64,000 bases of DNA, taken from positions 271,192 through 335,191 of IMG/VR virus record IMGVR_UViG_3300050821_002957; one strand, 5' to 3'. The DNA comes from a virus. A model generated the notes under the pieces. That model saw only the letters and a list, made by a program, of their open reading frames with translations. It was not told the origin of the DNA and searched no databases. Both the position numbers and the translations under genes were made by a program. Shown here piece by piece: positions 10,472 to 40,681 of this stretch (the first letter of the stretch is position 1; every line of letters starts with the position of its first letter).

Positions 10472-11722
10472 CTAGAGACGCCCGGAACGGATCAGTTCGA
10501 GGGCCTGTTCTTTCGATTTGATGTGACCGGCAAGCTGCCCATTCTCGGCGGCGTCCAGGATTCGTTTGAAATCTGGTCCTGGCTTCATTCCAAGTGCCTT
10601 CAGATCATCCCCATTGACAAATTTTGCCGGATTCAAGTCTTCGGCCTTCATGTTGGCAAACATTTTTGACAACATCTGGAAAGCAGCGATATGGACGTGC
10701 TTGTCCTGAGCCTCTGTACGGCATCCATAGAGCTTCAAGGCGTCGGGGAACAGCTTCTCACGCATCAGGCGTTTCAACACGTCCAGCGTCGTTCCAGCCG
10801 TCACAGAACCGATTCTGGACTGAAGGTCGATGATGCCGGTAATCTGCTTGATCGTGTCGTTAAAAAACTTCAGACGTTTACCAATTTTTTCTGCGCTCCC
10901 TGAAGGCAACATGTACAACGCACCAGCCAAACCCAATGCTGGATTGATGTTGGTGCCGATGAACGAAAGTGTTGCCATCATCTGAGCGTAATCATACGGA
11001 GTCATGTGGGCAACTTCCGGCAGAACATGCTCTAAGATGCCGGTGTTGTTCATTCCCTTGATTGTCTTGTGAGCGTCATGACCCATTGCCTTGGTCAATT
11101 CCTCTGTTATGCGCTCTACGTCCATTTTCGCAATGTTCGGAGCGTGCGCCTGCATTGCCGCCAGTGTCTCTGGGTGGATCTCAAATCCGAGCTTCGCCTG
11201 AAAACGATGTGCCCGAAGCATCCGAAGATGATCCTGTGTAAAACGGTCGTTCGGATTGCCGACACATTTGATGAGGCCGTTTTTTGCATCGGCCTTGCCA
11301 CCATGAAAATCGATGATGTCACCAGTGAACGGGTCCATGTACATTGCATTGACGGTGAAGTCACGCCGGTTGGAATCTTGTTGTTGATCACGAGTGTATT
11401 CGACATCATCTGGACGCCGACCATCAGTGTACTTTCCATCTTTGCGGAATGTGGCAATGTCGATACCGTGGCAGACAACGACACCAAATGATTTTCCTAC
11501 GACACTTGTTCCTGGGAAAAGTTTGAGAACTTCTTCAGGTGTGGCGTCAGTTGCTACGTCAAAATCTTTTGGCTTGTGGCCGGTCAAAAAATCACGAACA
11601 CAACCGCCAGCGAGATAGCCGACAAAGCCGTGTCTGCGAAGCGTAGTGATTACGTCTTTGGCGTCGTCAAGCGTGCCATAGGTGGACTCCCGAAGGAGGG
11701 CGAATTGTGTAAATGAGAGCAC
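10472..11722 (-). CDS. cca: tRNA nucleotidyltransferase (CCA-adding enzyme)
   Basis: The pol-beta head motif of the CCA/poly(A) polymerase family is present (GYLAGGCVRDFLTGHKPKDFDVATDATPEEV). Length is 416 aa. Confidence 0.8.
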   Translation of the reverse strand: MLSFTQFALLRESTYGTLDDAKDVITTLRRHGFVGYLAGGCVRDFLTGHKPKDFDVATDATPEEVLKLFPGTSVVGKSFGVVVCHGIDIATFRKDGKYTDGRRPDDVEYTRDQQQDSNRRDFTVNAMYMDPFTGDIIDFHGGKADAKNGLIKCVGNPNDRFTQDHLRMLRAHRFQAKLGFEIHPETLAAMQAHAPNIAKMDVERITEELTKAMGHDAHKTIKGMNNTGILEHVLPEVAHMTPYDYAQMMATLSFIGTNINPALGLAGALYMLPSGSAEKIGKRLKFFNDTIKQITGIIDLQSRIGSVTAGTTLDVLKRLMREKLFPDALKLYGCRTEAQDKHVHIAAFQMLSKMFANMKAEDLNPAKFVNGDDLKALGMKPGPDFKRILDAAENGQLAGHIKSKEQALELIRSGRL

Positions 11723-18685: not shown

Positions 18686-19090
18686 ATGAAAACCTTCCTC
18701 GAATTTATCTTGACCGAGAATGCCATGTTACCGGGCGTTGCTGGCGTAATGAAACACCAACGGGACAATGGTTTAGCCAAGGTAGGTGTTCATCCCAATT
18801 TTGCTGCCATTAAGAAGCAGCGTGAAGATAGCATCAACAAAGTTGGCACCCATCCAAATTTTGCTGAAATCTTACGTCGGCGTCAAGCAGGTCAAATGTC
18901 GGAAGAAGAAATGAACGAACTGCTTGGTCTATTCAAAAAGAAAAACGATGCAAAACCCTCGCCGTTTGCCAAACCAAAAAACGCAATTGGACATGGTGAC
19001 AAGGCTTATCGCACGAACCACCATTATGGGAACGGTGACATCGAACCATCCACCGTTCCTATTTTCAAACCAACTTGGCAGAATCGTTAG
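18686..19090 (+). CDS. hypothetical protein with an internal duplicated motif
   Basis: The segments VGVHPNFAAIKKQREDS and VGTHPNFAEILRRRQ are repeated. Confidence 0.35.
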   Translation: MKTFLEFILTENAMLPGVAGVMKHQRDNGLAKVGVHPNFAAIKKQREDSINKVGTHPNFAEILRRRQAGQMSEEEMNELLGLFKKKNDAKPSPFAKPKNAIGHGDKAYRTNHHYGNGDIEPSTVPIFKPTWQNR

Positions 19091-19674: not shown

Positions 19675-19762
19675 TGGCTGGAGGAGCAGGACTCGAACCT
19701 GCATATGAGCTTTCGCTACGACACATTAACAGTGTGCTGCCTTACCGTTAGGCGACCCTCCA
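19675..19762 (-). tRNA. tRNA with a GTT (Asn) anticodon loop but a long, type-II-like variable arm; CCA encoded
   Basis: Hand fold: acceptor TGGAGGG/TCCTCCA, D-arm GCCT-AACGGTA-AGGC, anticodon loop CTGTTAA, an 18-nt variable region with an AGC-GAAA-GCT hairpin, T-arm GCAGG-TTCGAGT-CCTGC, then G and CCA. Confidence 0.45.
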
Positions 19763-19783: not shown

Positions 19784-20217
19784 ATTCACAGAAAGTAAAA
19801 GAATGGCGCAAAAGAACCAAACAACGAATGATTGATGCAATGGGTGGATCGTGTGTAGTCTGTGGCTACACTCGTTGTTCAGCCTCATTAGGATTTCATC
19901 ATCTCGATCCGAGCAAGAAACATTTTGGTTTCGGAGGTCTTCGTGCCAACCCAAAATCTTGGGAGAAGATCAGCGAAGAACTACGAAAATGCGTTCTGAT
20001 TTGCAATCGTTGTCACGGAGAAGTACATGATGGTATAACCATCATTCCCATTAATGCAAAACGGTACGACGAAAGTTATGCTCAGAAATTTGGAAGAAGA
20101 AAAATGGCTCCGGGGACAGGACTCGAACCTGTAACATCCGCTTTAACAGAGCGGCGCTCTACCATTGAGCTACCCCGGAATGAGGTTGCTTCTTTGGTTA
20201 GGGTCACGCCGTTTTAA
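19784..20217 (+). CDS. HNH homing endonuclease
   Basis: Motifs CVVCGY...HHLDP...CNRCHGEVHDG are present. The gene lies between two tRNA genes and its 3' end overlaps the antisense tRNA at 20105-20179. Confidence 0.65.
20105..20179 (-). tRNA. tRNA-Asn (anticodon GTT), CCA encoded
   Basis: Hand fold: acceptor TCCGGGG/CCCCGGA, D-arm GCTC-AATGGTA-GAGC, anticodon arm CCGCT-CTGTTAA-AGCGG, T-arm ACAGG-TTCGAGT-CCTGT, discriminator G, CCA. Confidence 0.65.
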
Positions 20218-20520: not shown

Positions 20521-21456
20521 TTACACCACCAAATCTTTGGGCAAGCGTTCAGTCCGTGCAATCTCTTCTGCGGTCGGTTTGATCACATTGCCGACGATTC
20601 CACCGAAGATTGCTCCGACCGTATCTGTGTCGCCACCGACCTCAATGAAGCTGTTGATGCAGGATGCGAACGAAAGACCTTTTTCCAAAGCCTGATGTGC
20701 CTGCCATAATGCAAAAGGAACTGTATCGACTGCCGTTACTTCTTTGCCGTTTCCAACCTTGCCAATTATTCCCCAATTGGTTTCGTTAAATGCACCCTCA
20801 CTGGCGACCCATTCGATGCGATCACGAAGTTCCCCTGATGGTGTGTATTTGATGATGTTTAACCAGAAGTCTTCCTCAGGTCTTCCATAAGTTACGTTTG
20901 CTGCGGCTATGGCGACCGCTATCGAACCGGCAATAGCATCGACGTGATAATGGGTCACTTCGGCAGATAGACGTGCTTCTTGCGCTACAAGGCCATAGTC
21001 AGGTCCAAAGTGTGCGCCAATGACAGCATCACGCATTGCCGATCCGTTGCCTTTTGAGCCGATGCCCGGTCCCCACCAATTCTTGCTATGCTCAAGCCAA
21101 TTGTCGGAGTCATAGCTATAGGTCGTCAACAAACCACGAGTGCCACGCCCATAACCACGCTGAGGATCAACATGAAAATTACGAGCTAATTCCTGAGCGA
21201 GTTCGAGTTGATTGATCGTATTGAATCGGTACAAAGTTCTAACGACACCAATACCGACATGTGTGTCGTCTGTCCAGGGATAGAGAATGTCAATTTTTGT
21301 GATCCCTCGTTCAGTGGCGACATTCCCAGCCTTGTAATATTCAGCCGGAAGAATCTTCATCTGATTTTCGCCTGCTGCATCGCCTACCGACAAGGCAAGA
21401 AGCGAAAGATAAGTTTCTTTCTTTTTGTACTGCATCGGAGCAAGACAGGGTGTCAT
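20521..21456 (-). CDS. ADP-ribosylglycohydrolase (ARH/DraG family)
   Basis: Several ARH motifs are present: LSVGDAAGE, PWTDDTHVG, GNGSAMR and GGDTDTVGAIFGGIVG. Confidence 0.8.
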   Translation of the reverse strand: MTPCLAPMQYKKKETYLSLLALSVGDAAGENQMKILPAEYYKAGNVATERGITKIDILYPWTDDTHVGIGVVRTLYRFNTINQLELAQELARNFHVDPQRGYGRGTRGLLTTYSYDSDNWLEHSKNWWGPGIGSKGNGSAMRDAVIGAHFGPDYGLVAQEARLSAEVTHYHVDAIAGSIAVAIAAANVTYGRPEEDFWLNIIKYTPSGELRDRIEWVASEGAFNETNWGIIGKVGNGKEVTAVDTVPFALWQAHQALEKGLSFASCINSFIEVGGDTDTVGAIFGGIVGNVIKPTAEEIARTERLPKDLVV

Positions 21457-22191: not shown

Positions 22192-22267
22192 TGGCCGCTG
22201 GTTCCAGTTACGCTCTGGACTCTTCTGTTCTTCAGACAGACGCTTTCACTAGATTAGCTTACCAGCG
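22192..22267 (-). tRNA. tRNA-Phe-like (anticodon loop CTGAAGA) with a non-canonical T-loop
   Basis: Acceptor CGCTGGT/ACCAGCG, then G and CCA. The anticodon arm is TCTGT-CTGAAGA-ACAGA. The T-arm is TCCAG-AGCGTAA-CTGGA and lacks the TTC motif. Confidence 0.45.
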
Positions 22268-22377: not shown

Positions 22378-22553
22378 ACCACGATCATTGCTGTCTGTCA
22401 ACAATGAAATTCTGTGTCGTGAACAAATGGTTCCTCGGATGGGAGCGGTATCATAGGCAGTGATAATCCCACCTGATTCCCCGGCTCACGACAAAATAAC
22501 AAGGCCACTCGGAAGTAGCCAAGATCCCTTGGTACACATGGTAACAGGGTCTA

Positions 22554-22793: not shown

Positions 22794-23735
22794 AAATGTG
22801 TGTCGGTGTTAAGGCACACCGAGCAGGCCGCAAGATTTTGTTACTGATCAATACCTGCTAAGAACCAGGATGTTTAAGAACTTATCCTTGAGAAAGCTCC
22901 GTTGTAGGCGACACGGCTTCCCTGAGAGTCAGAGTTACTTCAGCTACTCCTGATGGTATGGTGACTCAGCTACCCCGACTTTTTAGTGATCGGCTCCATT
23001 CCGGTATTCGATTCGGCAACGACAGATTCCGACTCTGCAACGTTCTGCTTCTTTTCGATGAGAAGCAAAAATCATAAAAACTCAAAATGACCAGAGGACC
23101 CTCAGCAGTGAGCGCAGATCCCACGTTCGCATACAAGCGTCAATGACAAGTTTTATCCAACGAGCCATTGTCTTGTACGTTGGCTCACCGTCGAGTGCGC
23201 TATCCAGTTCGACACACTCACCTGCGGTTCTAATGACTTTCGTCTCCCGCTGGCCCTATCATCGCCTCACACTTCCGTGTGTTTCAACATCCTGGTCATC
23301 TCAAGGGCGACAGCCTTGCGGCCACGACACCCCACCAGCTTTTTTACTGTGTACTGATCACAGGGAGAGCTAGAACGACTTTCGCCGCCCCACACCTACC
23401 GCCACTGGTCGAGACTTCTACATGCGACCAGCCATGTCGCTAAAAGGGGCACTACGAGTAGATGCCCTCCACCACGTTGTTCTTTTACGTCCAACAACGA
23501 AACGACTTAGACCCATAACTCTGACCGGAAATCAGAACTATGATCCACACTCCCCGGTGGAAGCCGGGAAGACTTTGAATGTGAACTAATAATTGACAAG
23601 GGATTATAGCCCCGAAGGACCATTTCACCATTTGAAAGATAACCCTCATCTTCCGGCTCACATCACGAAATACGGCTGCTTGTCCTACCATTAGACGACC
23701 GGATCTGCCGACGCTTTACGCCATGAGAGCAGATT

Positions 23736-24060
23736 GGACTCCGACCGGGACTCGAACCCGGATTTCTCAGCTAGACGAATGACGGAGCATAGTGCGCTCT
23801 ACGTCGGAATTGGTGGATACACATGGGAATTGAACCCATAACCTTCTCGGTGCAAGCGAGTTGCTCTCCCAATTGAGCTAGTGACCCATAACTTTGTACC
23901 TCGAACAAATAAGTATCAGAGGGCTTGTCATTAGGAAAGATAACCCTCTAAATCCGGCTCGAAGCACTACAAAACTTTTGGTGGATCGCCAGGGATTTGA
24001 ACCCTGCTGTTATCCTCGGTGCAAGCGAGGCAAACACCCCAAGCATTTCCGCAACCCACA
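23736..24060 (-). pseudogene. three degenerate tRNA-like elements (tRNA pseudogenes or fragments)
   Basis: One element has a T-arm CCGGG-TTCGAGT-CCCGG with the D-arm GAGC/GCTC but an unfoldable anticodon region. A second has an Ala-like loop CTTGCAC with an acceptor of only 5 of 7 pairs. A third has a clean 3' half (anticodon arm, T-arm, GCGATCC-A-CCA) with no matching 5' acceptor strand. Confidence 0.35.
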
Positions 24061-24278
24061 TTTAAATAGCACGAACAAATAGCGGTAGAAGACTGATAGG
24101 AGACTGCATTTAACGCACCCTCGGATTGGATACCGATCAGATACGCTTCAAACTCCCCTCCTCAAAGTTACGGGCGTCTTTTACTACACGTACAACGAAC
24201 TGCTTTGTGCCCACCAAATACTGCCGGTGAACTTTGTCATGGTTAGGTAACCTTCCAACCAGCGGCTCGTGCTATGTC

Positions 24279-24340
24279 GAAACAGAACGAAACAGAACGA
24301 AACAGAACGAAACAGTGCTCAACGATGCGAAACAGTGCGT
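24279..24340. repeat. 10-bp tandem repeat (CGAAACAGAA)x3 followed by two CGAAACAGTG units
   Basis: Directly visible as cgaaacagaacgaaacagaacgaaacagaacgaaacagtgctcaacgatgcgaaacagtgcg. Confidence 0.8.
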
Positions 24341-24421
24341 TAGGTCAAAGATCGTATTCTTTATCTATACACGCTACAGTTTGCTTTCAATAGCGCCTTT
24401 GACTCTTTCAGTCTAACATCC

Positions 24422-24691
24422 TTAGTATGGGATGTCAAGTGCCACGAACATAATAATTTCATCTTCGTCTTTTTTGCGACGAGCAGCAGCTTCTTTCTCA
24501 GTCAACACCAGAGGAGACGGATTGCCTTCGACTTTGATATTCACTGATAAACCTTGCTGGAGCCATCCAGATACTTCATCGGGCGGCGTCTCGACAAATG
24601 CCTGATCACACGCCTTCTGAATTTCGACATTGCGTATTGCAGCAAGCGGTTTGCCGGATGGCGTCATGATGTCTACGTTACAAAGAAGCAT
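24422..24691 (-). CDS. hypothetical protein
   Basis: 89-aa ORF. Confidence 0.3.
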   Translation of the reverse strand: MLLCNVDIMTPSGKPLAAIRNVEIQKACDQAFVETPPDEVSGWLQQGLSVNIKVEGNPSPLVLTEKEAAARRKKDEDEIIMFVALDIPY

Positions 24692-25190: not shown

Positions 25191-26984
25191 CTACTCTTCG
25201 GTCTCTTCTGCGATCCCAGCACTTGAACCACGAATAAAATCCGTAACCAATGCTGGAACATTCGAGTCGAACCCAACGATGTCCAAAGAATACGGGTCCT
25301 TCGGATCTGCGATGGTAAATTGCGTAGAAACCATTCCCATCACGATCAGGCGCACATCATCCTGCCCACGATGCTTACGATACTGCTTGAGAGCCTGCGA
25401 CGGTTGCATTTGTCCAGCCCAAGTCTCATTATCCGTGATCACCATGAAAGCGTCTGCGTCGATGCCAGCCTTTTGAGCGTGAAGCATCGGTGCAGCACAA
25501 TCGGTTCCACCAGCCGACATGCGAGAGGTCTTTGCCAACGCAGTCTTCAGAGTGTCCTTTGCGGTGATGCCAATTTCCTGCATTCCCGTAGAAAATGCAT
25601 AGATAGCGTAATTCGGTTCCGTGCGAGCCACAACCATCGCCATTGCTGCGCCTGCTTGTGCTGCCGTGATTCCGGTGCCTTGGATGATGCTGGACGCCCA
25701 CGACATAGAACCAGAAACGTCCATGCCAATGTACGTAGCCTTACCAGTCGGAATTGCGTTTGCGAATGCCAAGTAGAACGTGTTCTCTAAAGCGTCCACA
25801 ATGGTCGGTACAACGGTCCAGGTCGCATCGCTGCGCTGACCGTGGCCTTGGCCGTAGGTGCCTTGTGCCAACAATACCTGGAGCGGGTGAATCTTGCTCT
25901 TCTTGACGTAGGCTTCATCGTTCAAACGAGACACGACGAGCTTCGATGCTGCCGACAGCGGCTTCAAGAGACCAATCTTCGACATGGTTCCAAGATTACG
26001 AACCATTGCAGTTACCGGCATCTTCTGAAGCAGAGCTTCCCAGACTTCCGGTTGCGTCTTAAACTGCGTCGGAATCATTTCGTGAGTCAATCCACCGTCG
26101 ATGATGCACTTTACGATAGTGCTCGTATCCGTCGCCTTCTTTGCGGTTTCATAGGCGGTGATCAACTTCGGTGCGTTCGATCCGGTCAACAAATCATAAG
26201 CGTTCTGATAGCGAGCACGCTGATTCTGAATTTCCGCAGAAGTCAGATCAGTCGTGCGATGGCTGTTGCCCTGCCACTTCTTGACAGAACGAGTCCAGTT
26301 CTGAGCAGCTTCGTTCAAGGCATCGAGACCACCGAAACGACCCCAAGCCAGCAAAGCACTCTTCATCGGATCAGTCGCCTTGACGTGTGCGAGGCTGACG
26401 AGATCACGAGTGGACCAGCCATCACGCTGTTGATACTTCGCCAACTGATAAGCCAGCGAATCTTCCGTGCGTTCGGTGTACCAGTTGCCGATTGCAGTCT
26501 TTACACCACGACCGTATCCACGCATGGAATCGAGGTACTCGTTGAAGTGGAACATGTGAGTACCGATACGTGCAACCTTGCTCAATTGCGACAGAGCATA
26601 AGCAGCAGTTTCAGCCGAACCAAAATTCGGTGTTGCGGCAACTGCCAGGGCAAACAATGCCGGATCGTTCTTCGGAGCACGGCCTGCTTGCGAAATGTTG
26701 ACGATCATATCGACCGTGCGCTTTCCATCCAACTGCAAGCACGCACGAACGTTCGCTGCGTTGTCTACAGTCATCTTCTTGGCAGATGCATAGTACGTCG
26801 GCGCATCGCTACCGAGAATCAAAAATCGTTCGAGCATCTGGAAGGGAGTGATGGTGAAGGTGTATCCACCAGCGTTGTTCTGCTTCATCTCTGCTTCCCG
26901 GCCCGGAATTGCCTGCGACTGTGATGTCTTCTTGCCGCTTAATACCGTTGCGTAATTGCTCTTTGCTGATCCTGCCTTTGCCAT
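25191..26984 (-). CDS. rsr: Ro60/Rsr orthologue (TROVE domain plus C-terminal vWA domain)
   Basis: The TROVE-like N-region (GGYTFTITPFQMLERFLILGSDAPTYY) is followed by the vWA MIDAS motif YIGMDVSGSM. A GGAGA SD sits 7 nt upstream of the ATG at 26984. The longer ORF start in the track is probably not used. Confidence 0.75.
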   Translation of the reverse strand: MAKAGSAKSNYATVLSGKKTSQSQAIPGREAEMKQNNAGGYTFTITPFQMLERFLILGSDAPTYYASAKKMTVDNAANVRACLQLDGKRTVDMIVNISQAGRAPKNDPALFALAVAATPNFGSAETAAYALSQLSKVARIGTHMFHFNEYLDSMRGYGRGVKTAIGNWYTERTEDSLAYQLAKYQQRDGWSTRDLVSLAHVKATDPMKSALLAWGRFGGLDALNEAAQNWTRSVKKWQGNSHRTTDLTSAEIQNQRARYQNAYDLLTGSNAPKLITAYETAKKATDTSTIVKCIIDGGLTHEMIPTQFKTQPEVWEALLQKMPVTAMVRNLGTMSKIGLLKPLSAASKLVVSRLNDEAYVKKSKIHPLQVLLAQGTYGQGHGQRSDATWTVVPTIVDALENTFYLAFANAIPTGKATYIGMDVSGSMSWASSIIQGTGITAAQAGAAMAMVVARTEPNYAIYAFSTGMQEIGITAKDTLKTALAKTSRMSAGGTDCAAPMLHAQKAGIDADAFMVITDNETWAGQMQPSQALKQYRKHRGQDDVRLIVMGMVSTQFTIADPKDPYSLDIVGFDSNVPALVTDFIRGSSAGIAEETEE

Positions 26985-27059
26985 ATCATTATCTCCTATG
27001 ATACCTAATTTTTTCGACTTCACCAGAATAACACATGCCTGATTGTTGTCAAGCATGTA

Positions 27060-29018: not shown

Positions 29019-29618
29019 CTACTCTTCTCTCGGACGAGGCTTGACGATCTTGTCGATGATGCCGTATGCCAGTGCTTCTTCGGCATCCATGATGTAGTCA
29101 CGCTCAAGATCCTTCTCGATGCGCTCAATCGGCTGACTTGTCAAATCAACCATCATGTTGACCAGACGCTTCTTGGTCTTTAAAATATGTTCGGCGTAGA
29201 TCGCAATGTCTGTAGCCTGTCCACCAAGACCGTACATCGACGGCTGGTGAATCATGACCTCAGCACCAGGAAGAGCAAACCGCTTGCCCTTGGTGCCACA
29301 CATCAAGATTGATGCACCCATCGAAGCTGCACGACCGACACAGGTAGTCTTGATATCGACACCGACGAGGTTCATGGTATCAATGATTGCCATGCCTGCG
29401 GAGATCGATCCACCCGGCGAATTGATGTAAATCTGAATGTCTTTCTCAGGATTTTCGGTCGAGAGATAAAGTAACTGTGCGACGACAGCGTTCGCAACAT
29501 AGTCATCAATCGGTGTTCCCAAGAAAATGATATTGTCTTTCAACAGACGTGAGTAAATATCATACGCACGTTCACCCTTGTGATCCGATTCGATTACGAT
29601 TGGAGTAAGCATTGACAT
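29019..29618 (-). CDS. clpP: ATP-dependent Clp protease proteolytic subunit ClpP
   Basis: It has the catalytic Ser context [11 protein letters not shown], the His context MIHQPS and the ClpP N-terminal region [13 protein letters not shown]. Confidence 0.85.
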
Positions 29619-29856: not shown

Positions 29857-30264
29857 CTACTTCAAATTCAGATCCTTACGAATCTTGTCAATCTTGTTAT
29901 TGGTAACTCGATTGTACTCGGACATGATGCGTTTCATAATCGTCCTGAACGATATCTGCACGATCAAAAAAAACATCGCTAACGGCCAGCAAATGACATC
30001 ATAAGCAATTTCCCCACGAAAATCAATTGCTTTCGGTGGTACAGCTTTTAGACGTATGTTGTTTTTTACATAATTCCGCCATTCATAGATGAGAAACTCT
30101 GGGATATTTTCACCCCGAATCCTATGAAACAACAAGAATCGTGCTCGTTCTGCCTCATAGAATCCAATCTCATCATCGACGTACAGCTTCCACCTGATGA
30201 ACCCCCATAAAAAACCCACGGCTGCATAACCAAACACAGCCAGGACATAGTAAAAAATTTTCAT
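29857..30264 (-). CDS. membrane protein
   Basis: An N-terminal TM helix and a second helix are present in 135 aa. Confidence 0.3.
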   Translation of the reverse strand: MKIFYYVLAVFGYAAVGFLWGFIRWKLYVDDEIGFYEAERARFLLFHRIRGENIPEFLIYEWRNYVKNNIRLKAVPPKAIDFRGEIAYDVICWPLAMFFLIVQISFRTIMKRIMSEYNRVTNNKIDKIRKDLNLK

Positions 30265-30797
30265 TGCGGCTCGAAGAGAATGACGTGTATGTTATCAAGC
30301 TCCTGTAGTCTATCATAAACCAATGCCTTTACGTCAACAAAATTCAGACCACCATTCGCACAACCTAACGCAGGCATCGCAAGAGACTTGATGAGTAAAC
30401 CTGACTTCAGCCGGTCCTTCAAATCATCGAGGCCAGCGGCGATCCATTCTAGTTTTGATCCATTTCTCCAATCGTCTTTCGTCGGAAAATTGATAATGAA
30501 TTCGTTGATCTGAGATGTTTGATAGTGTTCACATCCGCAGGCACACCACAACCCCTGATCATGGGCGTCAAAATCACATTCACAAAGACAGTCAGGGATT
30601 TCATGCCAAACCCAAACCTTACCAGTCTGAATGTACTTGCGAGCGCACAATTTCCTGTATTCGACGTACATGTCAGGATAACGCTGCTTGAACTGGAGTG
30701 CGATACCTTTGCCCATCACGCCGACACAATTCACAGTGTTGACGATAGCTTGTGCGCCGCAGTCGAAGAGGTTACCAGTCGTTCGTGTTTCGATCAT
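30261..30797 (-). CDS. macrodomain protein of the TARG1/DarG type (ADP-ribose hydrolase) with a Cys-rich insertion
   Basis: GNLFDCGAQAIVNTVNCVGVMGKGIALQFKQRYP resembles TARG1 GDLFSCP...CRMGAGIAVLFKKKF. The C-terminal LAMPALGCANGGL resembles LSMPRIGCGLDRL. An insert CLCECDFDAHDQGLWCACGCEH is present. Confidence 0.65.
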   Translation of the reverse strand: MIETRTTGNLFDCGAQAIVNTVNCVGVMGKGIALQFKQRYPDMYVEYRKLCARKYIQTGKVWVWHEIPDCLCECDFDAHDQGLWCACGCEHYQTSQINEFIINFPTKDDWRNGSKLEWIAAGLDDLKDRLKSGLLIKSLAMPALGCANGGLNFVDVKALVYDRLQELDNIHVILFEPQ

Positions 30798-33570: not shown

Positions 33571-34194
33571 TTACTTATTCAATTCTGCTTCATTGACATC
33601 ACAGGCTAAGTTGCTGGTCATATAGTTTCCACTGAGAGCCGATGACGTATAGGTGCTACGGACAGCGCTCATTGCATTCATCGCCATTCCAGTGTTGGCT
33701 ACGGTATAGTTGACGGCATTCGATACGCCAATATCCTTCGCCGCCGCCCATGCATCTTGATTGGCACCGAAGTAGACGAAGCCCCATTTGTTTTCATCCT
33801 GACGAATTTTGATCAACGTCTGGATTGCTGCACGCTTCCATTCTCTAGAAGCATTTTCACGTCCGTCTGTCATGATTGTAACCATGACATCAGTCTCACC
33901 CCTGGTAGCCGTAGAAATAGTTGCACCAATGGCATCGAACAATGCTGTCCCGCCGTCTGGGGAATATGTGTTTTTGTTAAGTTTTTGAACTTGTGCGAGT
34001 GGAACATCGGTGAATACCTTTTCCACTTTTTCTGAGAACTTGGTGAGAGATACAAGGTAGGTAACTTCACCTGCCTTCTCTTCTTTCGCCATCATTTGTA
34101 ACTGTTCATTGAATCCATCGATTACGACTTGTTGCTGATTGAGCATCGAGCCGGATTCGTCAAGGATAAACTTCTGCTTAATTGTCTTAGCCAT
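33571..34194 (-). CDS. stand-alone von Willebrand factor A (vWA) domain protein
   Basis: It has the MIDAS motif DESGSM and the segments GGTALFDAI and TDGRENAS. An AGGAGG SD lies 9 nt upstream of the ATG at 34194. Confidence 0.65.
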   Translation of the reverse strand: MAKTIKQKFILDESGSMLNQQQVVIDGFNEQLQMMAKEEKAGEVTYLVSLTKFSEKVEKVFTDVPLAQVQKLNKNTYSPDGGTALFDAIGATISTATRGETDVMVTIMTDGRENASREWKRAAIQTLIKIRQDENKWGFVYFGANQDAWAAAKDIGVSNAVNYTVANTGMAMNAMSAVRSTYTSSALSGNYMTSNLACDVNEAELNK

Positions 34195-34899
34195 TCTGTA
34201 GTGGCCTCCTGTATTGAATTGCAAAGTGACGTACTGCATTACCCGCACTTCTGTTTTATATAGACAGGAGATTTTAGACAAAAAGGTGGGATGAAAAAGA
34301 AAAAGCGCAGGGTCCGGGAATGACCATTGCGCCTCTTCTCGACGTTTTCTCCTTGTGCTACCACAGACGCACCGATTAAAGTGCCGGGGCGACGATCCCC
34401 AAAGGAGTTTGGCTTGCGCCTTAAACACGTCCAGAGATTCCCGCTCCAAACGCTTCCACTTCGGTGTAGGTCCGCAGTGGTCAGTTACGCCCTCTCGTCA
34501 AGCGAGTGCGCTCTATTTTTATCGATGTCCGAGACAGGAATTTAACCTGCATACTCCGAAGTTGGATGCTATTCTACGGTGCGGACATGCCCACGATCCG
34601 TTTCAGCTACTTTCGGACAAACTTTATACACGGTGGTGCATCTTATACTTCTTGGATCGAAACCCAAGCGGGGACGGAGTATGCCGCATCGAGAGCATTG
34701 AACGGTTGCAGGACGTTACTCCCTTGGCCTGTATTCTCGACTTCCTTCTGGTCCGTAAGCCCGACTACCAGAAACTCACCAAAACCTACTTGTCGGCGGG
34801 AGGGATTTTTCACTTGCTAAATCCAGTCCGCTTATCCGGTGGGACCTATCCTTTTCAGGGCCGACGAGAAATCCGGGGCGCTTTCGTTAAGCTATCGTT

Positions 34900-35700
34900 C
34901 ATGACCGACCTGGAGTGCCAGGATCTTCCCCGTATCGAAGAACGGAGCACACTGCGCTCGACGTTCAAACTAATTGGAAGAGAGGACTTCACTTATAGTT
35001 GTTCCAACACTCCGACGTTGCAACATCGAAGCCAAGCTGACTTTCCAGCTTCCGTAGTTGACTATCTAGAATTCGTCTAACTCTGCGGAGTCGAACCGCT
35101 CTCGCCCCTCAACGGGGCTGTGCTTCCGTTACACTAAGTGAGCAACTACGTGTCTTCTCTCTTCCAAAAATCCACGGTCACTGCTTGCCTATGGAACCCT
35201 CATCACATTCGACATCTCTGCGATTTGAGGTAGCACTTTCCAGGTGCCCTTTATACCCTTACCGACATGCAGCGACCACTAAAAATTCCGGCTGGACTGC
35301 GCTGAACGAGGCCGGTTCGCTATTTCCTGTTCAACTAGATGATGGTAGCTTACCACCATCACGTCGGCTCTTACGCCGCAAGATTGTGCGCTATTACACT
35401 TCACATGGTGTTTAGTCACAATCCAGCCTAATCGACGAACGGAGCATACTGCGCTCTACGTTCAAAATCCGTAGTGTCCTGCCATTAGACGACCGGAACG
35501 TTACGTTCCGAGAGGGACTCGAACCCCCATTTCCACTATCGGTGCCGTCCTGCCATTAGACGATTTTCAGAGGAGTCGAACCCCATTTGCACCTTCTCCG
35601 CATCTTGGAGGAAGCTACGTGAGTGCTTCACCTATGGGTTTACCAGTGCTCTTTCGAGTTGGTTTCCATGTCTGCCGTCGCACGTCGGTATCAGCCTTTC
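34900..35700 (-). pseudogene. array of degenerate tRNA-like fragments
   Basis: T-arm-like hairpins occur (GGGGG-TTCGAGT-CCCTC and GCGG-TTCGACT-CCGC). The motifs GTCGTCTAATGGCAGGAC and ACGTAGAGCGCAGTATGCTCCGT are shared with the 23.6-23.8 kb region. No complete cloverleaf could be folded by hand. Confidence 0.3.
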
Positions 35701-36106
35701 GGTCCTAACACTCCAAGAAAACTTAAATGTGATGGCCCTTCTACGCCAGTCCTTTTCACGTCTTCTCTAGATCGCAGGCTCTCTCGTCTCAAGGACCATC
35801 ACAAAACAAATTGGTAGCAGGTAACCCTTCGTGCCTTGAAGGATTTTACAGAGTGCTCGTCCAACCTTGCTACCAAAAAATCTACATTTGGCGAAAAACT
35901 GGACCATGCCATTTCCAGGCTTGGCGGCGACTCATCTTGTCTCGACTTCGGGATCGCCCTTCACCCTATCCCATGTTCTTCCGGTTTCTATCCCGGCCTG
36001 TTAAGCACCAAACAAAACTGCGACTTCCAGTCTTTGTAATCCTTTATGGTCGCTGTCCGCTCTGGCTGCTCTGCGCTGCCCTCTCAACAAACCCAGGATA
36101 ACAAAC

Positions 36107-36595
36107 CTACGCTTCCATGTCAATAGCTACATCATCTTTTTTTGAATTATTTTCGACGATCCAGGGAACCTCGATTTTGACCTGTTTTTCTCGTTCCAAC
36201 CAAAACCACGCCATCTTGGTAAGACCGTAGACATGGTTCGTAGGATCGCCACCATTGAGCCTACAGAGCGCTATAGCGAATCGATTTGCATGGACCCAGG
36301 CCCAACCCCATTTTTCGGCACCGGCAAGGTGGAGGGCATTGAGATCCTCAACAGGCCGATCCAAAATAACCAACATATTTTCGCATTGATCAGGTGGGAG
36401 AGAATGGATGCGCTCGCCACAAATAAATTTTGCATGTTCTGAAACTTCAACCGTGGGATCGTTCAAGAATTTAACAGCGGCTTCATTGTCTTCAGCGACA
36501 AACCCCCAAATACCGAAGCCATCGCAAACGGGACAAGTATCAGTTCCTCGAATGCGTCCCGAGCCTTTACATAAATCGCAGGGTCCATAGGTCAT
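36107..36595 (-). CDS. hypothetical protein with a DnaJ-type CxxCxGxG zinc-finger N-terminus
   Basis: The N-terminus carries CDLCKGSGRI and CPVCDGFGI. Confidence 0.35.
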   Translation of the reverse strand: MTYGPCDLCKGSGRIRGTDTCPVCDGFGIWGFVAEDNEAAVKFLNDPTVEVSEHAKFICGERIHSLPPDQCENMLVILDRPVEDLNALHLAGAEKWGWAWVHANRFAIALCRLNGGDPTNHVYGLTKMAWFWLEREKQVKIEVPWIVENNSKKDDVAIDMEA

Positions 36596-39255: not shown

Positions 39256-39557
39256 TATTCCTCGTCGTTAATATCTAGCCAATCGGGAGCTTCCCAGGTT
39301 CGGTGAATAACTCTGACGTAGATTACACCTTCTTCTTCGTCAAGATTCCATTCAAGATCATCGCCAACTTCTATGTTCAATTCACGAACTAATCCATCTG
39401 GCAGTGTCATCATTCCGTTCGGTTGTATGACACAGGCATATGACCTATTACCAAATCCAGAGTTCACCCAGACACCTAAAATGGGTGGTTCATCATTATC
39501 TTCAGTCGGCTCTTCGTCAAAGTCTTCCGGTTCTAGCTCTGCGTAATCTTCAGCCAT
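39255..39557 (-). CDS. AbrB/SpoVT (MazE-like) swapped-hairpin domain protein with an acidic N-terminus
   Basis: It contains MMTLPDGLVRELNIEVGDDLEW. Confidence 0.35.
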   Translation of the reverse strand: MAEDYAELEPEDFDEEPTEDNDEPPILGVWVNSGFGNRSYACVIQPNGMMTLPDGLVRELNIEVGDDLEWNLDEEEGVIYVRVIHRTWEAPDWLDINDEE

Positions 39558-40681
39558 TTTCTTCCTACCCGAATCACTGACATTTCTGGCAACGGTTCTT
39601 TGAGTCTTGGATCGATAACTACACTACCATTTACATTTACGGCTCCGCTCTTCACCAGACGACTGCCCTCTGAGACCGAAGATGCCAAACCCATCAGCAC
39701 CAAGACTCGATCCAGGCGTGTATTGACCGAATGAAAAACCGGAATTCTTACAACTGGAATATCGACCGGCGCTTCACGATCTGAAAATCTCTTTGTCCAT
39801 TCAATTTCAGCGGTGTCTGCTTTTGGTTCGTCATGTAACCAATGAACAATTCGCCATGCCAAATATTTCTTAGATTGAAATGGTTGAGGATGCCAGCCAC
39901 ATTTATTTGGAAACAGAACCTCTTGCCATTGGCGCATTACATCATCAGCAATCGACATAACTTTGCTGAACATTTCAAATGGTTCATCCAGCAAACCAAT
40001 GTGATTACCGAACGACTTGGACATCTTTCGACCGTCCGTACCAAACAACAAAGGAACCGTCGCAATAACCTGAGGTTTCTCACCACGATCATGCATGTAC
40101 ATCCGGCCCATCAGCATGTTGTAAAATTGATCGTTGCCGCCAAGTTCAATATCTACACCTTCTCTGAAAGAGTCATATGCCTGAAGCATGGGGTATAACA
40201 TCTCATGCATAAAGACCGGAGTGTTTGTTACCTTGCGTTCTTTAAAATCGTCACGGCCACCGATTTGACTGAGGGTGAAATGGGACATGAGACGAATTAC
40301 ATCTTGCATCTTCATCTCGTCAAACCATTCGGCATTCTTTTTGACGACGGTTTTGGTTCGATCCAAAATTTTGAAAGCCTGTGTCATATAGCTCCAGGCG
40401 TTCGTATTGATTTCATCGTCAGAAAGCGCAGGCCGAAGCTGATTGCGCCCGGTCGGATCACCAATCGATGCTGTGGTGTTGCCGACGATCATCACAATGG
40501 TGTGCCCAGCATCCTGAAATTCACGCATCTTTTTCAACAGCACAGCATGACCAAGATGTAGGTCTGGTGCTGTGGGATCGAATCCGGCTTTCACACGTAA
40601 CGGATGACCTGACGCAATAAGAGCATCAAACTCCTTTTCGTCGAGGAGTTGCGTAAACCCGGATTTGAGTGATTGTTGCAC
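39533..40681 (-). CDS. tyrS: tyrosyl-tRNA synthetase
   Basis: It has the class I HIGH motif in a TyrRS context (GFDPTAPDLHLGH), the KMSKS motif and a C-terminal S4-like domain (LVKSGAVNVNG). Confidence 0.85.
   Translation of the reverse strand: MQQSLKSGFTQLLDEKEFDALIASGHPLRVKAGFDPTAPDLHLGHAVLLKKMREFQDAGHTIVMIVGNTTASIGDPTGRNQLRPALSDDEINTNAWSYMTQAFKILDRTKTVVKKNAEWFDEMKMQDVIRLMSHFTLSQIGGRDDFKERKVTNTPVFMHEMLYPMLQAYDSFREGVDIELGGNDQFYNMLMGRMYMHDRGEKPQVIATVPLLFGTDGRKMSKSFGNHIGLLDEPFEMFSKVMSIADDVMRQWQEVLFPNKCGWHPQPFQSKKYLAWRIVHWLHDEPKADTAEIEWTKRFSDREAPVDIPVVRIPVFHSVNTRLDRVLVLMGLASSVSEGSRLVKSGAVNVNGSVVIDPRLKEPLPEMSVIRVGRKWLKITQS

What the first reader, a model, noticed from the sequence alone, without database searches (positions are those of the whole stretch)
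23600..24060. Cluster of degenerate tRNA-like elements sharing motifs with a second array at 34.9-35.7 kb
Three minus-strand elements have good T-arms and partly canonical arms but fail as complete cloverleaves. One has a clean 3' half (anticodon arm, T-arm, acceptor 3' strand plus CCA) with no complementary 5' acceptor strand. One has an Ala-type anticodon loop with a G3-A70 mispair. One has a D-arm GAGC-GCACTAT-GCTC but an unfoldable anticodon region. The motifs ACGTAGAGCGCAGTATGCTCCGT and GTCGTCTAATGGCAGGAC recur at 34.93, 35.44, 35.47 and 35.54 kb. Candidate explanations are tRNA pseudogene graveyards, split or permuted tRNA genes, intron-containing tRNAs, or a family of tRNA-mimic small RNAs. 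Such RNAs could act as decoys for host anticodon nucleases or as Rsr partners.
Basis: seen in the sequence. Interest (0 to 1): 0.65.

Follow-up and report, generated by a model that had tools for sequence, protein, structure and literature searches.

The report
Phage Ro60 partner RNAs: Y RNAs, tRNA mimics
The "broken tRNAs" are a non-coding RNA operon just downstream of a jumbo phage's Ro60 gene, made of Y RNA hairpins, two alanine tRNA-type genes and a circularly permuted tRNA mimic; this kind of system is already known, here in an unusually modular form.

Summary
Region 23600-24060 (minus strand) lies 1.1-1.6 kb downstream of a Ro60/Rsr gene (25191-27056). It is part of a promoter-driven non-coding RNA operon.

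- **Y RNAs.** Four stem-bulge RNAs of the Ro60-binding type: Y0, Y1, Y2 and Y3. A covariance model built only from other loci scores Y1 at 56.8 bits.
- **tRNA-Ala(UGC)-type genes.** There are two. Ala2 is conserved in related jumbo phages, including its bulged acceptor stem. Ala1 has lost its D arm in this phage.
- **X hairpin.** A conserved hairpin, ACG-UA-GAGC...GCUC-CGU.
- **Permuted tRNA-like domain.** Its order is T arm, capped acceptor-like hairpin, D arm, as in YrlA Y RNAs. GTCGTCTAATGGYAGGAC is its D arm.

The second array (34.2-36.1 kb) is a separate, promoter-driven, ORF-free 1.9 kb RNA region. It holds two more permuted modules, two X copies and other tRNA-like domains, but no canonical Ro60-binding stem. 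Related phages conserve blocks of it.

Best explanation: these are Ro60 partner RNAs (Y RNAs and YrlA-like tRNA mimics) released from a precursor punctuated by tRNA-like elements. Phage Ro60 and Y RNAs are already described. The new points are that the tRNA mimics are not nested in a Y stem, and that orphan copies form a second array.

The parts
25191..27056 (-). Ro60/Rsr orthologue (621 aa). It is the protein partner that organises the locus.
   Evidence: Pfam TROVE 2.9e-40 and vWA_Ro60 2.2e-57. PHROG 850 'RNA-binding protein'. Matches D. radiodurans Rsr 2NVO at E 4.7e-105 and Ro60 of 9NEN and 1YVP.
24410..24438 (-). Sigma-70-like promoter of array 1 (TTGACA, 17 nt, TAGACT, with TG).
   Evidence: sequence. 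The same TTGACA...TAGACT/TATACT element lies upstream of the array in L260, L262, L180 and L182.
24069..24272 (-). Y0: a long Y RNA. The 5' strand is GCACGAGCCG-CUGGUUGGAAGGUUACC and the 3' strand is UCUUCUACCGCUAUUUGUUCGUGC, with an internal domain of about 130 nt.
   Evidence: Motif hit. Both strands are nearly invariant and the upper stem co-varies in L262, L180 and L182. Model R1 does not find it because of the large insert.
23979..24057 (-). tRNA-Ala(UGC)-like 1 (Ala1). The acceptor stem with G3:U70, the anticodon arm, the T arm and an encoded ACCA are intact. The D arm is degenerate (G8, G9, weak AAAU/GUUU stem) and the variable loop has 7 nt.
   Evidence: Called by ARAGORN but not by the Rfam tRNA model. 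Orthologues with canonical D arms score 44-48 bits.
23896..23967 (-). Y1: a canonical stem-bulge Y RNA (GAGCCGGA...GAGGGUUAUC...CCCUC...UUUGUUCGAG).
   Evidence: R1, built without window sequences, scores it 56.8 bits, E 4e-11. Rfam nematode sbRNA (a Y RNA homologue) 34.6 bits and YrlB 16 bits. MFE fold. Orthologue in L260 scores 59.7 bits.
23811..23887 (-). tRNA-Ala(UGC) 2 (Ala2), with a conserved one-nucleotide bulge in the 3' acceptor strand, G3:U70, and an encoded CCA.
   Evidence: ARAGORN. Rfam tRNA 51.1 bits. The bulge, plus compensatory changes in the anticodon and T stems, is seen in L260 and L262. Orthologues score 53-54.6 bits.
23781..23805 (-). X hairpin, copy 1 (GACG-UA-GAGC-GCACUAU-GCUC-CGUC).
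   Evidence: Repeat family D2. Compensatory outer-stem changes occur across copies and relatives: AACG/CGUU, AAUG/CAUU, CAUG/CAUG, AGCG/CGCU. Found only in this phage clade among 269 loci.
23675..23771 (-). Module c: a circularly permuted tRNA-like domain. Parts: closing stem GCUG/CAGC; linker AGAAAU; T arm 23761-23745; acceptor-like hairpin 23744-23699 that begins UCGGAGU-C-CAA; U8 and C9; D arm 23696-23682.
   Evidence: R2, built from 24 non-window sequences, scores it 37.8 bits, E 1e-11. It is a paralogue of module a. It is absent at this position in L260.
23577..23666 (-). Y2: a Y RNA (GAGCCGGAAGAUGAGGGUUAUC...) with a UUCG-capped hairpin in its loop.
   Evidence: R1 36.4 bits, E 2.4e-6. 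Orthologue in L260 37.4 bits, with a co-varying GAAA-capped hairpin. Repeat D8.
22417..22491 (-). Y3: a further Y RNA, downstream of a terminator-like hairpin.
   Evidence: R1 25.8 bits, E 7e-4. Orthologue in L260 at 18935-19008, 25.9 bits. Terminator-like site at 22520-22503.
36095..36123 (-). Sigma-70-like promoter of array 2 (TTGACA, 17 nt, TATCCT, with TG).
   Evidence: Conserved in L260 and L268, with TTGACA...TATGAT in L262.
35888..36088 (-). Conserved structured 5' domain of array 2. Function unknown.
   Evidence: 69% identity with indels to L260 and L268. No Rfam match. No credible ORF.
35541..35593 (-). Module b: a minimal permuted tRNA-like domain. It has the closing stem GGUGC/GCACC, a T arm, a UGAAAA linker in place of the acceptor hairpin, and a D arm.
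   Evidence: R2 17.8 bits, E 1e-4. Sequence.
35469..35542 (-). Module a: a complete permuted tRNA-like domain. It has the closing stem CCG(A)UAGU/ACUACGG, the linker GGAAAU, a T arm, an 8-bp acceptor-like hairpin capped by UAA, U8 and C9, and a D arm.
   Evidence: R2 44.5 bits, E 5e-14. Rfam YrlA RF02553 gives a local match to exactly the T, AS and D part, 17.8 bits.
35437..35463 (-). X hairpin, copy 2.
34978..35167 (-). A domain closed by a long-range stem (GGAAGAGAG/CUCUCUUCC). It contains a normal-order tRNA-like core with an 8-bp acceptor-like stem CGUAGUUG/CAACUACG, a D arm, a 5-nt 'anticodon' loop and a T arm.
   Evidence: MFE fold. Homologues in L262, L266 and L267 have compensatory changes in both closing helices.
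34872..34966 (-). X hairpin, copy 3 (34966-34940), followed by a degenerate permuted module whose T loop is shortened to 4 nt.
   Evidence: Colinear with X plus module c of array 1. R2 11.9 bits. 94% identical to L266 359-456.
34294..34633 (-). Conserved 3' block of array 2, including a degenerate tRNA-like element at 34616-34528.
   Evidence: 75-76% identity to L266 and L267. Rfam tRNA 18.7 bits, below threshold.

Best explanation
The cluster is the non-coding RNA partner set of a phage-encoded Ro60 (Rsr) protein.

Transcription and processing. A sigma-70-like promoter at 24438-24410 drives a minus-strand precursor. It carries, in order: Y0, tRNA-Ala-like 1, Y1, tRNA-Ala(UGC) 2, the X hairpin, a circularly permuted tRNA-like domain (module c), and Y2. 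Y3 lies further downstream. The tRNA-shaped elements are cut by host RNase P and 3'-end nucleases, which releases the Y RNAs (inferred).

Action. The Y RNAs bind the outer face of the Ro60 ring through their conserved stem. That stem has G(A/G)GCCG on the 5' strand, UUG(U/C)(U/C)C on the 3' strand, and GGGUUAUC at the top. The variable loops and the tRNA-like domain act as effector-recruiting modules, as in bacterial YrlA and in the Ro60-Y RNA-PNPase machine (inferred by homology).

Shared motifs. The motifs shared with 34.9-35.6 kb are the D arm of the permuted tRNA mimic and the X hairpin. The second array is a separate promoter-driven RNA region, about 1.9 kb long. It carries two further permuted mimics and other tRNA-like domains without Ro60-binding stems.

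Shown: the gene identities, the RNA architectures, their conservation and covariation, and the promoters. Inferred: transcription, processing, Ro60 binding and effector recruitment.
For: Ro60 gene on the same strand, 0.9-2.8 kb upstream of Y0-Y3.

Y RNA stems. The Y-stem motif is nearly exclusive to the Ro60 strand in 259 other Ro60 loci: 279 same-strand against 4 opposite. In full-flank loci 49 of 71 motifs lie within 2 kb upstream of Ro60. The family alignment shows covariation, with 10 of 14 pairs carrying compensatory changes. Model R1, built without window sequences, finds Y1, Y2 and Y3 at 56.8, 36.4 and 25.8 bits. Rfam gives sub-threshold hits to a Y RNA homologue family and to YrlB.

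Permuted modules. Model R2 comes from 24 other sequences, with 97.8% of cells paired and 12 of 15 pairs changed on both sides. It finds modules a and c at 44.5 and 37.8 bits, against 20 bits or less for tRNA-junction artefacts in the window. Rfam YrlA matches the T, AS and D part of module a locally. The nucleotides for tRNA tertiary contacts are present: U8, A14, G18-G19, U54/U55/C56/A58, and the A15:U48 Levitt pair (sequence). These are the features Chen et al. 2014 used to define YrlA.

Conservation. The order Ala1, Y, Ala2, X, Y, Y is conserved in L260. The paired tRNA-Ala types are also in L262, and Y0 and X are conserved in relatives. Both promoters are conserved.

Precedent. YrlA lies within 4 kb of rsr on the same strand, including in 22 phages. 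D. radiodurans Y RNAs are co-transcribed with a tRNA. M. smegmatis YrlA is cut by RNase P and receives CCA. Phage phiLo Ro60 binds phage Y-like RNAs and host PNPase.
Against: There are no expression, processing or binding data. Modules a, b and c are not nested inside a Ro60-binding stem, which canonical YrlA RNAs are. Modules a and b lie 8.4 kb from Ro60, and array 2 has no R1 hit in the window or in relatives. The window's 5'-strand motifs (GCCGGA, GCCGCU) differ from the published GNCGAAN0-1G. Rfam YrlA and YrlB scores are far below their gathering thresholds. Folding energies are no better than those of shuffled sequence, z -0.6 and -0.3. Module c is missing from the closest large relative, so it is not essential to the operon.
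Confidence: 0.78

Rival explanations
1. tRNA pseudogene graveyard: the elements are decaying remnants of duplicated and recombined tRNA genes and have no function of their own.
For: Ala1 of the window has lost the canonical D arm that its orthologues keep. The module at 34939-34872 has a truncated T loop. L180 differs from L182 by a deletion between two tRNA-like repeats, and module content differs between relatives. Both show rapid recombination.
Against: The permuted order with a capped acceptor hairpin and a closing helix cannot arise by simple decay of a tRNA gene, and it matches a functional RNA class. The closing stems differ by compensatory changes between copies: CCGUAGU/ACUACGG, GCUG/CAGC, GGCUGG/CCAGCC, GCAGG/CCUGC. 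The X hairpin and the Ala2 stems co-vary. Both arrays keep conserved promoters.
Confidence: 0.1
2. Ordinary phage tRNA array: all elements are working tRNAs and the hand folds were simply wrong.
For: ARAGORN calls two tRNA-Ala(UGC) genes. Ala2 scores 51 bits and is conserved. The window carries five other ARAGORN-called tRNAs (seven in all), a CCA-adding enzyme and a TyrRS.
Against: The third element and modules a and b have no anticodon arm, and no tRNA tool calls them. Ala1 fails the Rfam model. The Y stems are not tRNAs at all.
Confidence: 0.05
3. Ro60-independent tRNA mimics: the permuted modules, above all array 2, act on their own as sponges or decoys for host factors that recognise the tRNA elbow or acceptor end. 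Candidates are RNase P, the CCA-adding enzyme, modification enzymes, and tRNA-directed defence nucleases.
For: Array 2 has its own conserved promoter, no Y stem, and lies 8 kb from Ro60. Permuted modules without Y stems recur in the array 2 homologues of L266 and L267. Similar modules occur in viral contigs where no Ro60 gene was seen in the DNA fetched: L082, L106, L115, L118, L140, L151.
Against: Those loci are short, so Ro60 may lie outside them. The same module type sits next to Y2 in array 1 and inside Y stems in many Ro60 loci. The modules lack an anticodon loop, so they cannot be anticodon-nuclease substrates.
Confidence: 0.2
4. Permuted (two-piece) tmRNA or a split tRNA gene.
For: The gene order T arm, acceptor 3' strand, (CCA), spacer, acceptor 5' strand, D region is that of permuted tmRNA genes. 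The neighbouring tRNA-like genes carry alanine identity, G3:U70.
Against: ARAGORN, which detects permuted tmRNA, reports none. No Rfam tmRNA match was found. Module a's acceptor hairpin is capped by a UAA triloop, without CCA or G3:U70. No tag reading frame or pseudoknot domain follows.
Confidence: 0.02

Closest known systems
YrlA (bacterial and phage tRNA-like Y RNA; Chen et al. 2014, PMC4201824; Rfam RF02553)
   Same: The tRNA-like domain has the same order: variable linker, T arm, capped acceptor-like hairpin, D arm, closed by a helix that replaces the anticodon arm. The nucleotides for tRNA tertiary contacts are conserved. Module c is encoded close to rsr on the same strand. Many family members, and less cleanly module c, carry an N-CCA right after the 7-bp acceptor-like stem.
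   Different: In the window the domain is not inserted in the loop of the Ro60-binding stem. Module c lies 5' of Y2, and modules a and b have no Y stem at all and are 8.4 kb from Ro60. The D arm is of the UCGUCUAAUGGYAGGAC type. A clade-specific X hairpin accompanies the module. Rfam's YrlA threshold is not reached.
Simple stem-bulge Y RNAs: YrlB and Yrn2 of bacteria, metazoan Y RNAs, nematode sbRNAs
   Same: Y1, Y2 and Y3 are 65-90 nt hairpins formed by the 5' and 3' ends. The 5' strand has a GGUCCGA-like motif (GAGCCGGA), the 3' strand has UUGUUC, and the loop side of the upper stem has GGGUUAUC. From my own knowledge, the last motif is also present in human Y4. They lie next to the Ro60 gene.
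   Different: They are phage-encoded, present in four or more copies, and interleaved with tRNA-like genes. Y0 carries an insert of about 130 nt.
Thermus phage phiLo Ro60 with Yrl1 and Yrl2 (NAR 2025, PMC12135203)
   Same: A phage-encoded Ro60 with Y-like RNAs encoded beside it. These were shown to bind the phage Ro60 and to assemble with host PNPase.
   Different: The phiLo Yrls lie upstream of the gene and are described as stem-bulge-stem RNAs. No tRNA-like module, tRNA punctuation or second array was reported in the passages I read.
D. radiodurans Yrn1/Yrn2-tRNA-Asp polycistron and M. smegmatis YrlA processing
   Same: Y RNAs are made from a precursor that also carries a tRNA. The tRNA-like domain is cut by RNase P and receives CCA.
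   Different: Here two tRNA-Ala-type elements flank Y1, and one of them is degenerate. Processing is only inferred.
Permuted (two-piece) tmRNA genes
   Same: A circularly permuted tRNA-like domain, with alanine-type identity nearby.
   Different: There is no tag ORF and there are no pseudoknots. ARAGORN and Rfam do not detect one.

Membership tests
Ro60-binding Y RNA (bacterial/phage/metazoan) | The 5' and 3' ends pair in a long stem that carries the conserved Ro60-contact motif on the 5' strand. | tested here: met
   Y1, Y2 and Y3 match model R1, built from 34 other Y stems, at 56.8, 36.4 and 25.8 bits. Y0 matches by motif and orthology. The motif is GAGCCG(G)A rather than the published GNCGAAN0-1G or GGUCCGA.
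Ro60-binding Y RNA (bacterial/phage/metazoan) | Encoded within about 4 kb of the Ro60 gene on the same strand. | tested here: met
   Ro60 is at 25191-27056 (-). Y0-Y3 are at 24272-22417 (-), 0.9-2.8 kb downstream.
Ro60-binding Y RNA (bacterial/phage/metazoan) | Stem supported by covariation. | tested here: met
   10 of 14 pairs show compensatory changes in alignment A1. The Y0 upper stem co-varies between the window/L262 and L180/L182.
Ro60-binding Y RNA (bacterial/phage/metazoan) | Bound and stabilised by Ro60 in vivo. | not testable with these tools
   Needs RIP/CLIP or EMSA.
YrlA (tRNA-like Y RNA) | tRNA-like domain in the order V, T arm, capped acceptor-like stem-loop (AS), D arm. | tested here: met
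   Modules a and c match R2 at 44.5 and 37.8 bits. Rfam YrlA matches locally over model positions 30-81. Module b lacks the AS stem.
YrlA (tRNA-like Y RNA) | tRNA-like domain nested within the Ro60-binding stem, with the 5' GNCGAAN0-1G motif in the same RNA. | tested here: not met
   Module c is flanked 5' by Ala2 and X, and 3' by the complete Y2 hairpin. Modules a and b have no R1-type stem nearby. The nested form is seen in L148 and many other loci.
YrlA (tRNA-like Y RNA) | Conserved nucleotides for tRNA tertiary interactions, including the co-varying Levitt pair 15:48. | tested here: met
   By inspection: U8, A14, A15:U48 (AAAU before the T stem), G18-G19, and the T loop UUCGAGU or UUCGACU. 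Family members with G15 have C48.
YrlA (tRNA-like Y RNA) | Reaches the Rfam RF02553 gathering score. | tested here: not met
   17.8 bits against a threshold of 69, and only a local match. No hit for module c.
YrlA (tRNA-like Y RNA) | [quoted passage not shown] | not testable with these tools
   Only suggestive: the AS of module c begins UCGGAGU-C-CAA, and many family members encode N-CCA there.
Canonical tRNA | Complete cloverleaf accepted by tRNA models. | tested here: inconclusive
   Ala2 is accepted by ARAGORN and by Rfam at 51 bits, with a conserved acceptor bulge. Ala1 is accepted by ARAGORN only. The third element is accepted by neither.
Permuted tmRNA | tRNA-like domain plus a tag reading frame, as detected by ARAGORN or Rfam. 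| tested here: not met
   No tmRNA.

The most novel reading that the evidence does not exclude
The permuted, anticodon-less tRNA mimics that stand outside any Ro60-binding stem (module c with the X hairpin; modules a and b and the other tRNA-like domains of the 1.9 kb array 2) define a separate class of jumbo-phage non-coding RNA. On this reading a promoter-driven, multi-domain precursor yields free tRNA-elbow mimics. These act independently of Y RNA tethering, for example by titrating or redirecting host tRNA-processing, tRNA-modifying or tRNA-targeting defence factors, or by serving as substrates or clients rather than tethers of Ro60.
Probability: 0.25. Interest if true: 0.75.

Novelty: new variant of a known kind. 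Interest (0 to 1): 0.5.

Why it matters
Ro60 and its Y RNAs form a conserved RNA surveillance machine, and its role in phage infection is barely explored. This locus gives a compact, testable set of RNAs in one uncultured jumbo phage:
- at least four Y RNAs;
- tRNA-type processing signals;
- tRNA mimics both next to a Ro60-binding stem and away from one.

It shows that the YrlA tRNA-like domain is a movable module that can exist on its own. That bears on what the module recruits. It also warns annotators that 'degenerate tRNAs' near a TROVE-domain gene are likely to be Y RNAs. If the orphan modules work without Ro60, they would add a new type of phage tRNA mimic to the conflict over host tRNA.

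Tried and rejected
- Megablast of 22-26 kb against GenBank phages: no match.
- Exact X-hairpin pattern in IMG/VR: no match.
- The D-arm pattern in IMG/VR gave 99 hits, but most are ordinary tRNA-Gln-type genes and only about 8 are permuted modules.
- The VWA protein as a direct query in viral contigs found no relative. Homologue search followed by contig look-up worked instead.
- Rfam found no family at threshold other than tRNA in either array. YrlA, YrlB and sbRNA hits are sub-threshold.
- Single-sequence folding energies of X-c-Y2 and of modules b-a are not better than shuffles, z -0.58 and -0.31. Thermodynamics alone gives no support.
- I considered a closing stem GUCAU/GUGAU for module c, but it overlaps the Y2 lower stem, so I left it out.
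- I considered a giant Y RNA pairing 35218 with 34965. The MFE fold and the homologues support the GGAAGAGAG/CUCUCUUCC closure instead.
- The + strand ORF 34355-35080 (241 aa) occupies the position of a 248-aa gene in relatives. It is unrelated to that gene (E 81) and has no Pfam hit, so I treated it as spurious.
- Reading the Ala1 T arm plus the Ala2 D arm as a permuted module enclosing Y1 (R2 19.9 bits) was rejected as an artefact of paralogous acceptor stems.
- tmRNA, introns and split tRNA genes: no support.
Full report
**1. What is in the sequence**

The window is phage-like. From about 5.7 to 45.7 kb the genes run on the minus strand. ARAGORN finds seven minus-strand tRNAs. Two of them are tRNA-Ala(UGC) genes inside the finding, at 23979-24057 and 23815-23887. 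Rfam's tRNA model accepts only the second (51.1 bits). It misses the first even in a permissive scan of 821 bases. Three T arms lie in 23600-24060.

**2. The organising gene**

The ORF at 25191-27056 (-) is a Ro60/Rsr orthologue.
- Pfam TROVE scores 2.9e-40 and vWA_Ro60 scores 2.2e-57.
- It matches D. radiodurans Rsr (2NVO) at E 4.7e-105.
- The cluster lies 0.9-1.6 kb downstream of it on the same strand.

Chen et al. 2014 (PMC4201824) showed that bacterial and phage Y RNAs lie within about 4 kb of rsr on the same strand. At least one Y RNA per genome, YrlA, carries a tRNA-like domain in the order V, T arm, capped acceptor-like stem-loop (AS), D arm. In other words it is circularly permuted relative to a tRNA.

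**3. Y RNA stems**

A permissive Rfam scan hit 23898-23966 with a nematode sbRNA family, which is a Y RNA homologue, at 34.6 bits. It also hit YrlB weakly.

The sequence GAGCCGGAUUUAGAGGGUUAUC...CCCUCUGAUACUUAUUUGUUCGAG folds as a long stem formed by its two ends. A second copy lies at about 23666-23577 (repeat D8).

I fetched 259 other Ro60 loci, 80 viral and 80 metagenomic among them.
- The motif G-N-GCCG-N(6-15)-G(G/U)UUA(U/C)C occurs 279 times on the Ro60 strand and 4 times on the other strand.
- In loci with full flanks, 49 of 71 motifs lie within 2 kb upstream of Ro60.
- An alignment of 34 simple examples, none from the window, has an 8-bp lower stem and a 6-bp upper stem. Ten of the 14 pairs show compensatory changes.

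The covariance model built from that alignment (R1) finds three elements in the whole 64 kb window, all on the Ro60 strand:

| Element | Coordinates | Bits | E-value |
|---|---|---|---|
| Y1 | 23964-23899 | 56.8 | 4e-11 |
| Y2 | 23663-23579 | 36.4 | 2.4e-6 |
| Y3 | 22491-22417 | 25.8 | 7e-4 |

A fourth, long Y RNA (Y0, 24272-24069) has the same 5' and 3' strands around an insert of about 130 nt. It is conserved in L262, L180 and L182, with a co-varying upper stem.

**4. The three 'tRNA-like' elements**

Ala1 (24057-23979).
- It has a 7-bp acceptor stem GGGUUGC/GCGAUCC with G3:U70, an anticodon arm with loop CUUGCAC, a T arm and an encoded ACCA.
- Its D region (GGAAAUGCUUGGGGUGUUUG) is degenerate.
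- Its orthologues in L260, L262 and L182 keep a canonical UAGUGAUAAUGGGAGCAC D arm and score 44-48 bits.
- So in this phage Ala1 is a decayed copy that keeps the features needed for end processing.

Ala2 (23887-23811).
- It is a conserved tRNA-Ala(UGC).
- The one-nucleotide bulge in its 3' acceptor strand (GUG-U-AUCC opposite GGGUCAC, keeping G3:U70) is identical in L260 and L262.
- The anticodon and T stems carry compensatory changes.
- The orthologues score 53-55 bits.

The third element is not a tRNA.
- Its 'D arm' is hairpin X (23805-23781; GACG-UA-GAGC-GCACUAU-GCUC-CGUC).
- Its T arm (23761-23745) belongs to module c (23771-23675).
- Module c reads: closing stem GCUG/CAGC; linker AGAAAU; T arm; an acceptor-like hairpin beginning UCGGAGU-C-CAA; U8 and C9; then the D arm GUCU-AAUGGUA-GGAC.

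**5. Testing the permuted reading**

I aligned 24 permuted domains from other contigs. Nineteen lie inside Y stems next to Ro60 genes and five come from D-arm pattern hits. On the T, AS and D helices 97.8% of cells pair, and 12 of 15 pairs change on both sides. This far exceeds the shuffled and slid controls.

The model built from them (R2) scores as follows in the window:

| Element | Coordinates | Bits | E-value |
|---|---|---|---|
| Module a | 35544-35468 | 44.5 | 5e-14 |
| Module c | 23778-23674 | 37.8 | 1e-11 |
| Module b (no AS stem) | 35602-35546 | 17.8 | 1e-4 |

Matches made from the T arm of one tRNA and the D arm of the next score 20 bits or less.

Module a cannot be a tRNA junction. 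Its AS is an 8-bp hairpin capped by UAA, and a 7-bp helix, CCG(A)UAGU/ACUACGG, closes the domain. Rfam's own YrlA model matches precisely its T, AS and D part, at 17.8 bits (local, below threshold).

The nucleotides for tRNA tertiary contacts are all present: U8:A14, G18-G19 with U55/C56, U54:A58, and the Levitt pair as A15:U48. Family members with G15 have C48.

Many family members encode N-CCA immediately after a 7-bp AS stem. [quoted passage not shown]

**6. Relatives and context**

The VWA-domain protein next to array 2 is really 207 aa, starting at 34194. It is 100% identical to a protein on a 404 kb contig, so the window belongs to a jumbo phage. Syntenic relatives were recovered: L260 (370 kb contig), L262 (375 kb) and the short contigs L266-L269. 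L180-L182 have 64-65% Ro60 identity.

L260 has the same downstream order: Ala1, Y (59.7 bits), Ala2, X, Y (37.4 bits), Y (25.9 bits), then tRNA-Phe and tRNA-Trp. There, only a small hairpin lies between X and Y2. So module c is a lineage-specific insertion, probably copied from array 2. The D-arm regions of modules a and c match in 22 of 23 nt.

Promoters:
- A sigma-70-like promoter, TTGACA-17-TAGACT, precedes array 1 at 24438-24410. It is conserved in L260, L262, L180 and L182.
- Another, TTGACA-17-TATCCT, precedes array 2 at 36123-36095. It is conserved in L260, L262 and L268.

The window also encodes a CCA-adding enzyme, a TyrRS, ClpP, a Clp-type AAA ATPase, a Macro domain protein and an ADP-ribosylglycohydrolase.

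**7. Array 2 (34195-36106)**

There is no credible ORF. The 241-aa + strand ORF is unrelated to the 248-aa gene found at that position in relatives, and it has no Pfam hit. No Rfam family reaches threshold.

From 5' to 3' the array contains:
- a conserved 5' domain, 36088-35888;
- modules b and a in tandem;
- X copy 2;
- a Y-like half element, GAGCCGACG followed by a perfect hairpin;
- a conserved block, 35294-35181;
- a 190-nt domain closed by a long-range stem, with a normal-order tRNA-like core, 35167-34978;
- X copy 3 with a degenerate module, 34966-34872;
- a conserved 3' block with another degenerate tRNA-like element.

Blocks are 65-94% identical in L266, L267 and L268, but in a different order. 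L266 and L267 each carry a permuted module at 35 bits, with closing stems GGCUGG/CCAGCC and GCAGG/CCUGC. In L267 an X hairpin lies directly 5' of the module, as in window array 1. The 35167-34978 domain keeps both of its closing helices through compensatory changes in L262.

R1 finds no canonical Y stem in array 2, either in the window or in relatives.

X co-varies in its outer stem: AACG/CGUU, AAUG/CAUU, CAUG/CAUG, AGCG/CGCU. It is confined to this clade among the 269 loci held. Its function is unknown.

**8. Mechanism**

Shown:
- a Ro60 gene;
- four Y-type stems on its strand;
- two tRNA-Ala-type genes flanking Y1;
- permuted tRNA-like domains;
- conserved promoters;
- covariation.

Inferred from the D. 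radiodurans, Salmonella, M. smegmatis and phage phiLo systems:
- The array is transcribed as a precursor.
- RNase P and 3' nucleases acting on the tRNA-shaped elements release the Y RNAs. In L260 the Y1 model match ends 2 nt inside the Ala2 gene.
- The Y stems bind the phage Ro60.
- Loops and tRNA-like modules recruit an effector such as host PNPase, redirecting RNA decay or repair during infection.

I put 0.78 on the statement that this is the Ro60 partner RNA set. I put about 0.5-0.6 on module c acting together with Y2 as a YrlA-like unit. The role of array 2 is open.

**9. Comparison and novelty**

Phage Ro60 genes with Y RNAs, including tRNA-like ones, are known from several sources:
- 22 phages in Chen et al. 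2014;
- mycobacteriophages, CcrColossus and Bacillus phage G, as cited in the phiLo paper;
- jumbo phage TROVE proteins 'with a tRNA-like partner' in Iyer et al. 2021.

Y0-Y3 are ordinary members of that kind. The variant features here are:
- tRNA-like domains that are not nested in the Ro60-binding stem;
- orphan copies in a second promoter-driven array 8 kb away;
- the X hairpin;
- the conserved pair of unusual tRNA-Ala-type genes.

Strict YrlA membership fails on the nesting criterion and on the Rfam threshold. The resemblance in how it works remains strong.

**10. Limits**

- There are no expression or binding data.
- MFE z-scores are not significant.
- E-values from the session's models are rough.
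- Only a handful of close relatives were available, so covariation for X, the closing stems and the array 2 domains rests on few sequences.
- The host is unknown.

Noticed in passing
window 22195-22267 (-): A tRNA-like gene accepted by Rfam (39.7 bits) but not by ARAGORN. It has a non-standard T loop (CCAGAGCGUAACUGG) and anticodon loop CUGAAGA (GAA, Phe-type). L260 has a similar element, which ARAGORN calls tRNA-Phe.
   Followed up: partly
window 19675-19762 and 20105-20179 (-): Two tRNA-Asn(GUU) genes. The first carries an insertion of about 15 nt in the variable region.
   Followed up: no
window 24278-24317: Three to four tandem decamers (minus strand UUCUGUUUCG) lie between the array 1 promoter and Y0, preceded by two related CACUGUUUCG copies.
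   Followed up: no
window 22830-23580 (-): About 750 nt more of apparently non-coding, structured sequence lies downstream of Y2. Parts are conserved in L260, L180 and L182, for example GUCGUUUCGUUGUUGGACGUAAAAGAACAACGUGGUGGAGGGC, AAUGGAGCCGAUCAC, and GGAGUAGCUGA...CUCAG repeats that occur three times in L182.
   Followed up: partly
window 35888-36088 (-); L260 8655-8910; L268 955-1303: A non-coding domain of about 200 nt, conserved with indels, sits immediately after the array 2 promoter. It has no Rfam match.
   Followed up: partly
window 33571-34449 (-): The VWA (YegL-like) gene is probably 207 aa, starting at 34194, not the 292-aa ORF. All homologues are about 207 aa. Relatives carry a 248-aa opposite-strand gene just upstream that is absent from the window.
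   Followed up: yes
L206:627-734, L242:473-582, L243:71-179, L231:525-614, L064:6438-6571: Other Ro60 loci carry Y RNAs whose loop holds a normal-order tRNA-like body (D arm, anticodon-type arm, T arm), with the Y upper stem acting as the acceptor stem. This is a second way of fusing a tRNA shape to a Y stem.
   Followed up: no
L180 4296-4330 versus L182 2412-2620: L180 lacks about 200 nt present in L182, including most of the tRNA-Ala gene. The break lies between two UCGGGGUUCGAUYCCCCGG repeats, which shows recombination between tRNA-like repeats within these arrays.
   Followed up: partly
window 10472-11722, 39533-40681, 29019-29618, 5722-6819, 30261-30797, 20521-21456 (all -): The jumbo-phage context includes a CCA-adding enzyme, tyrosyl-tRNA synthetase, ClpP, a Clp-type AAA ATPase, a Macro domain protein and an ADP-ribosylglycohydrolase.
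   Followed up: partly
window 35340-35372 (-): A half Y-like element: GAGCCGACG followed by a perfect 9-bp hairpin (UGAUGGUGG-UAAG-CUACCAUCA) and UCUAGUUGAAC. It has no GGUUAUC motif and no lower stem. It is conserved in L266.
   Followed up: partly
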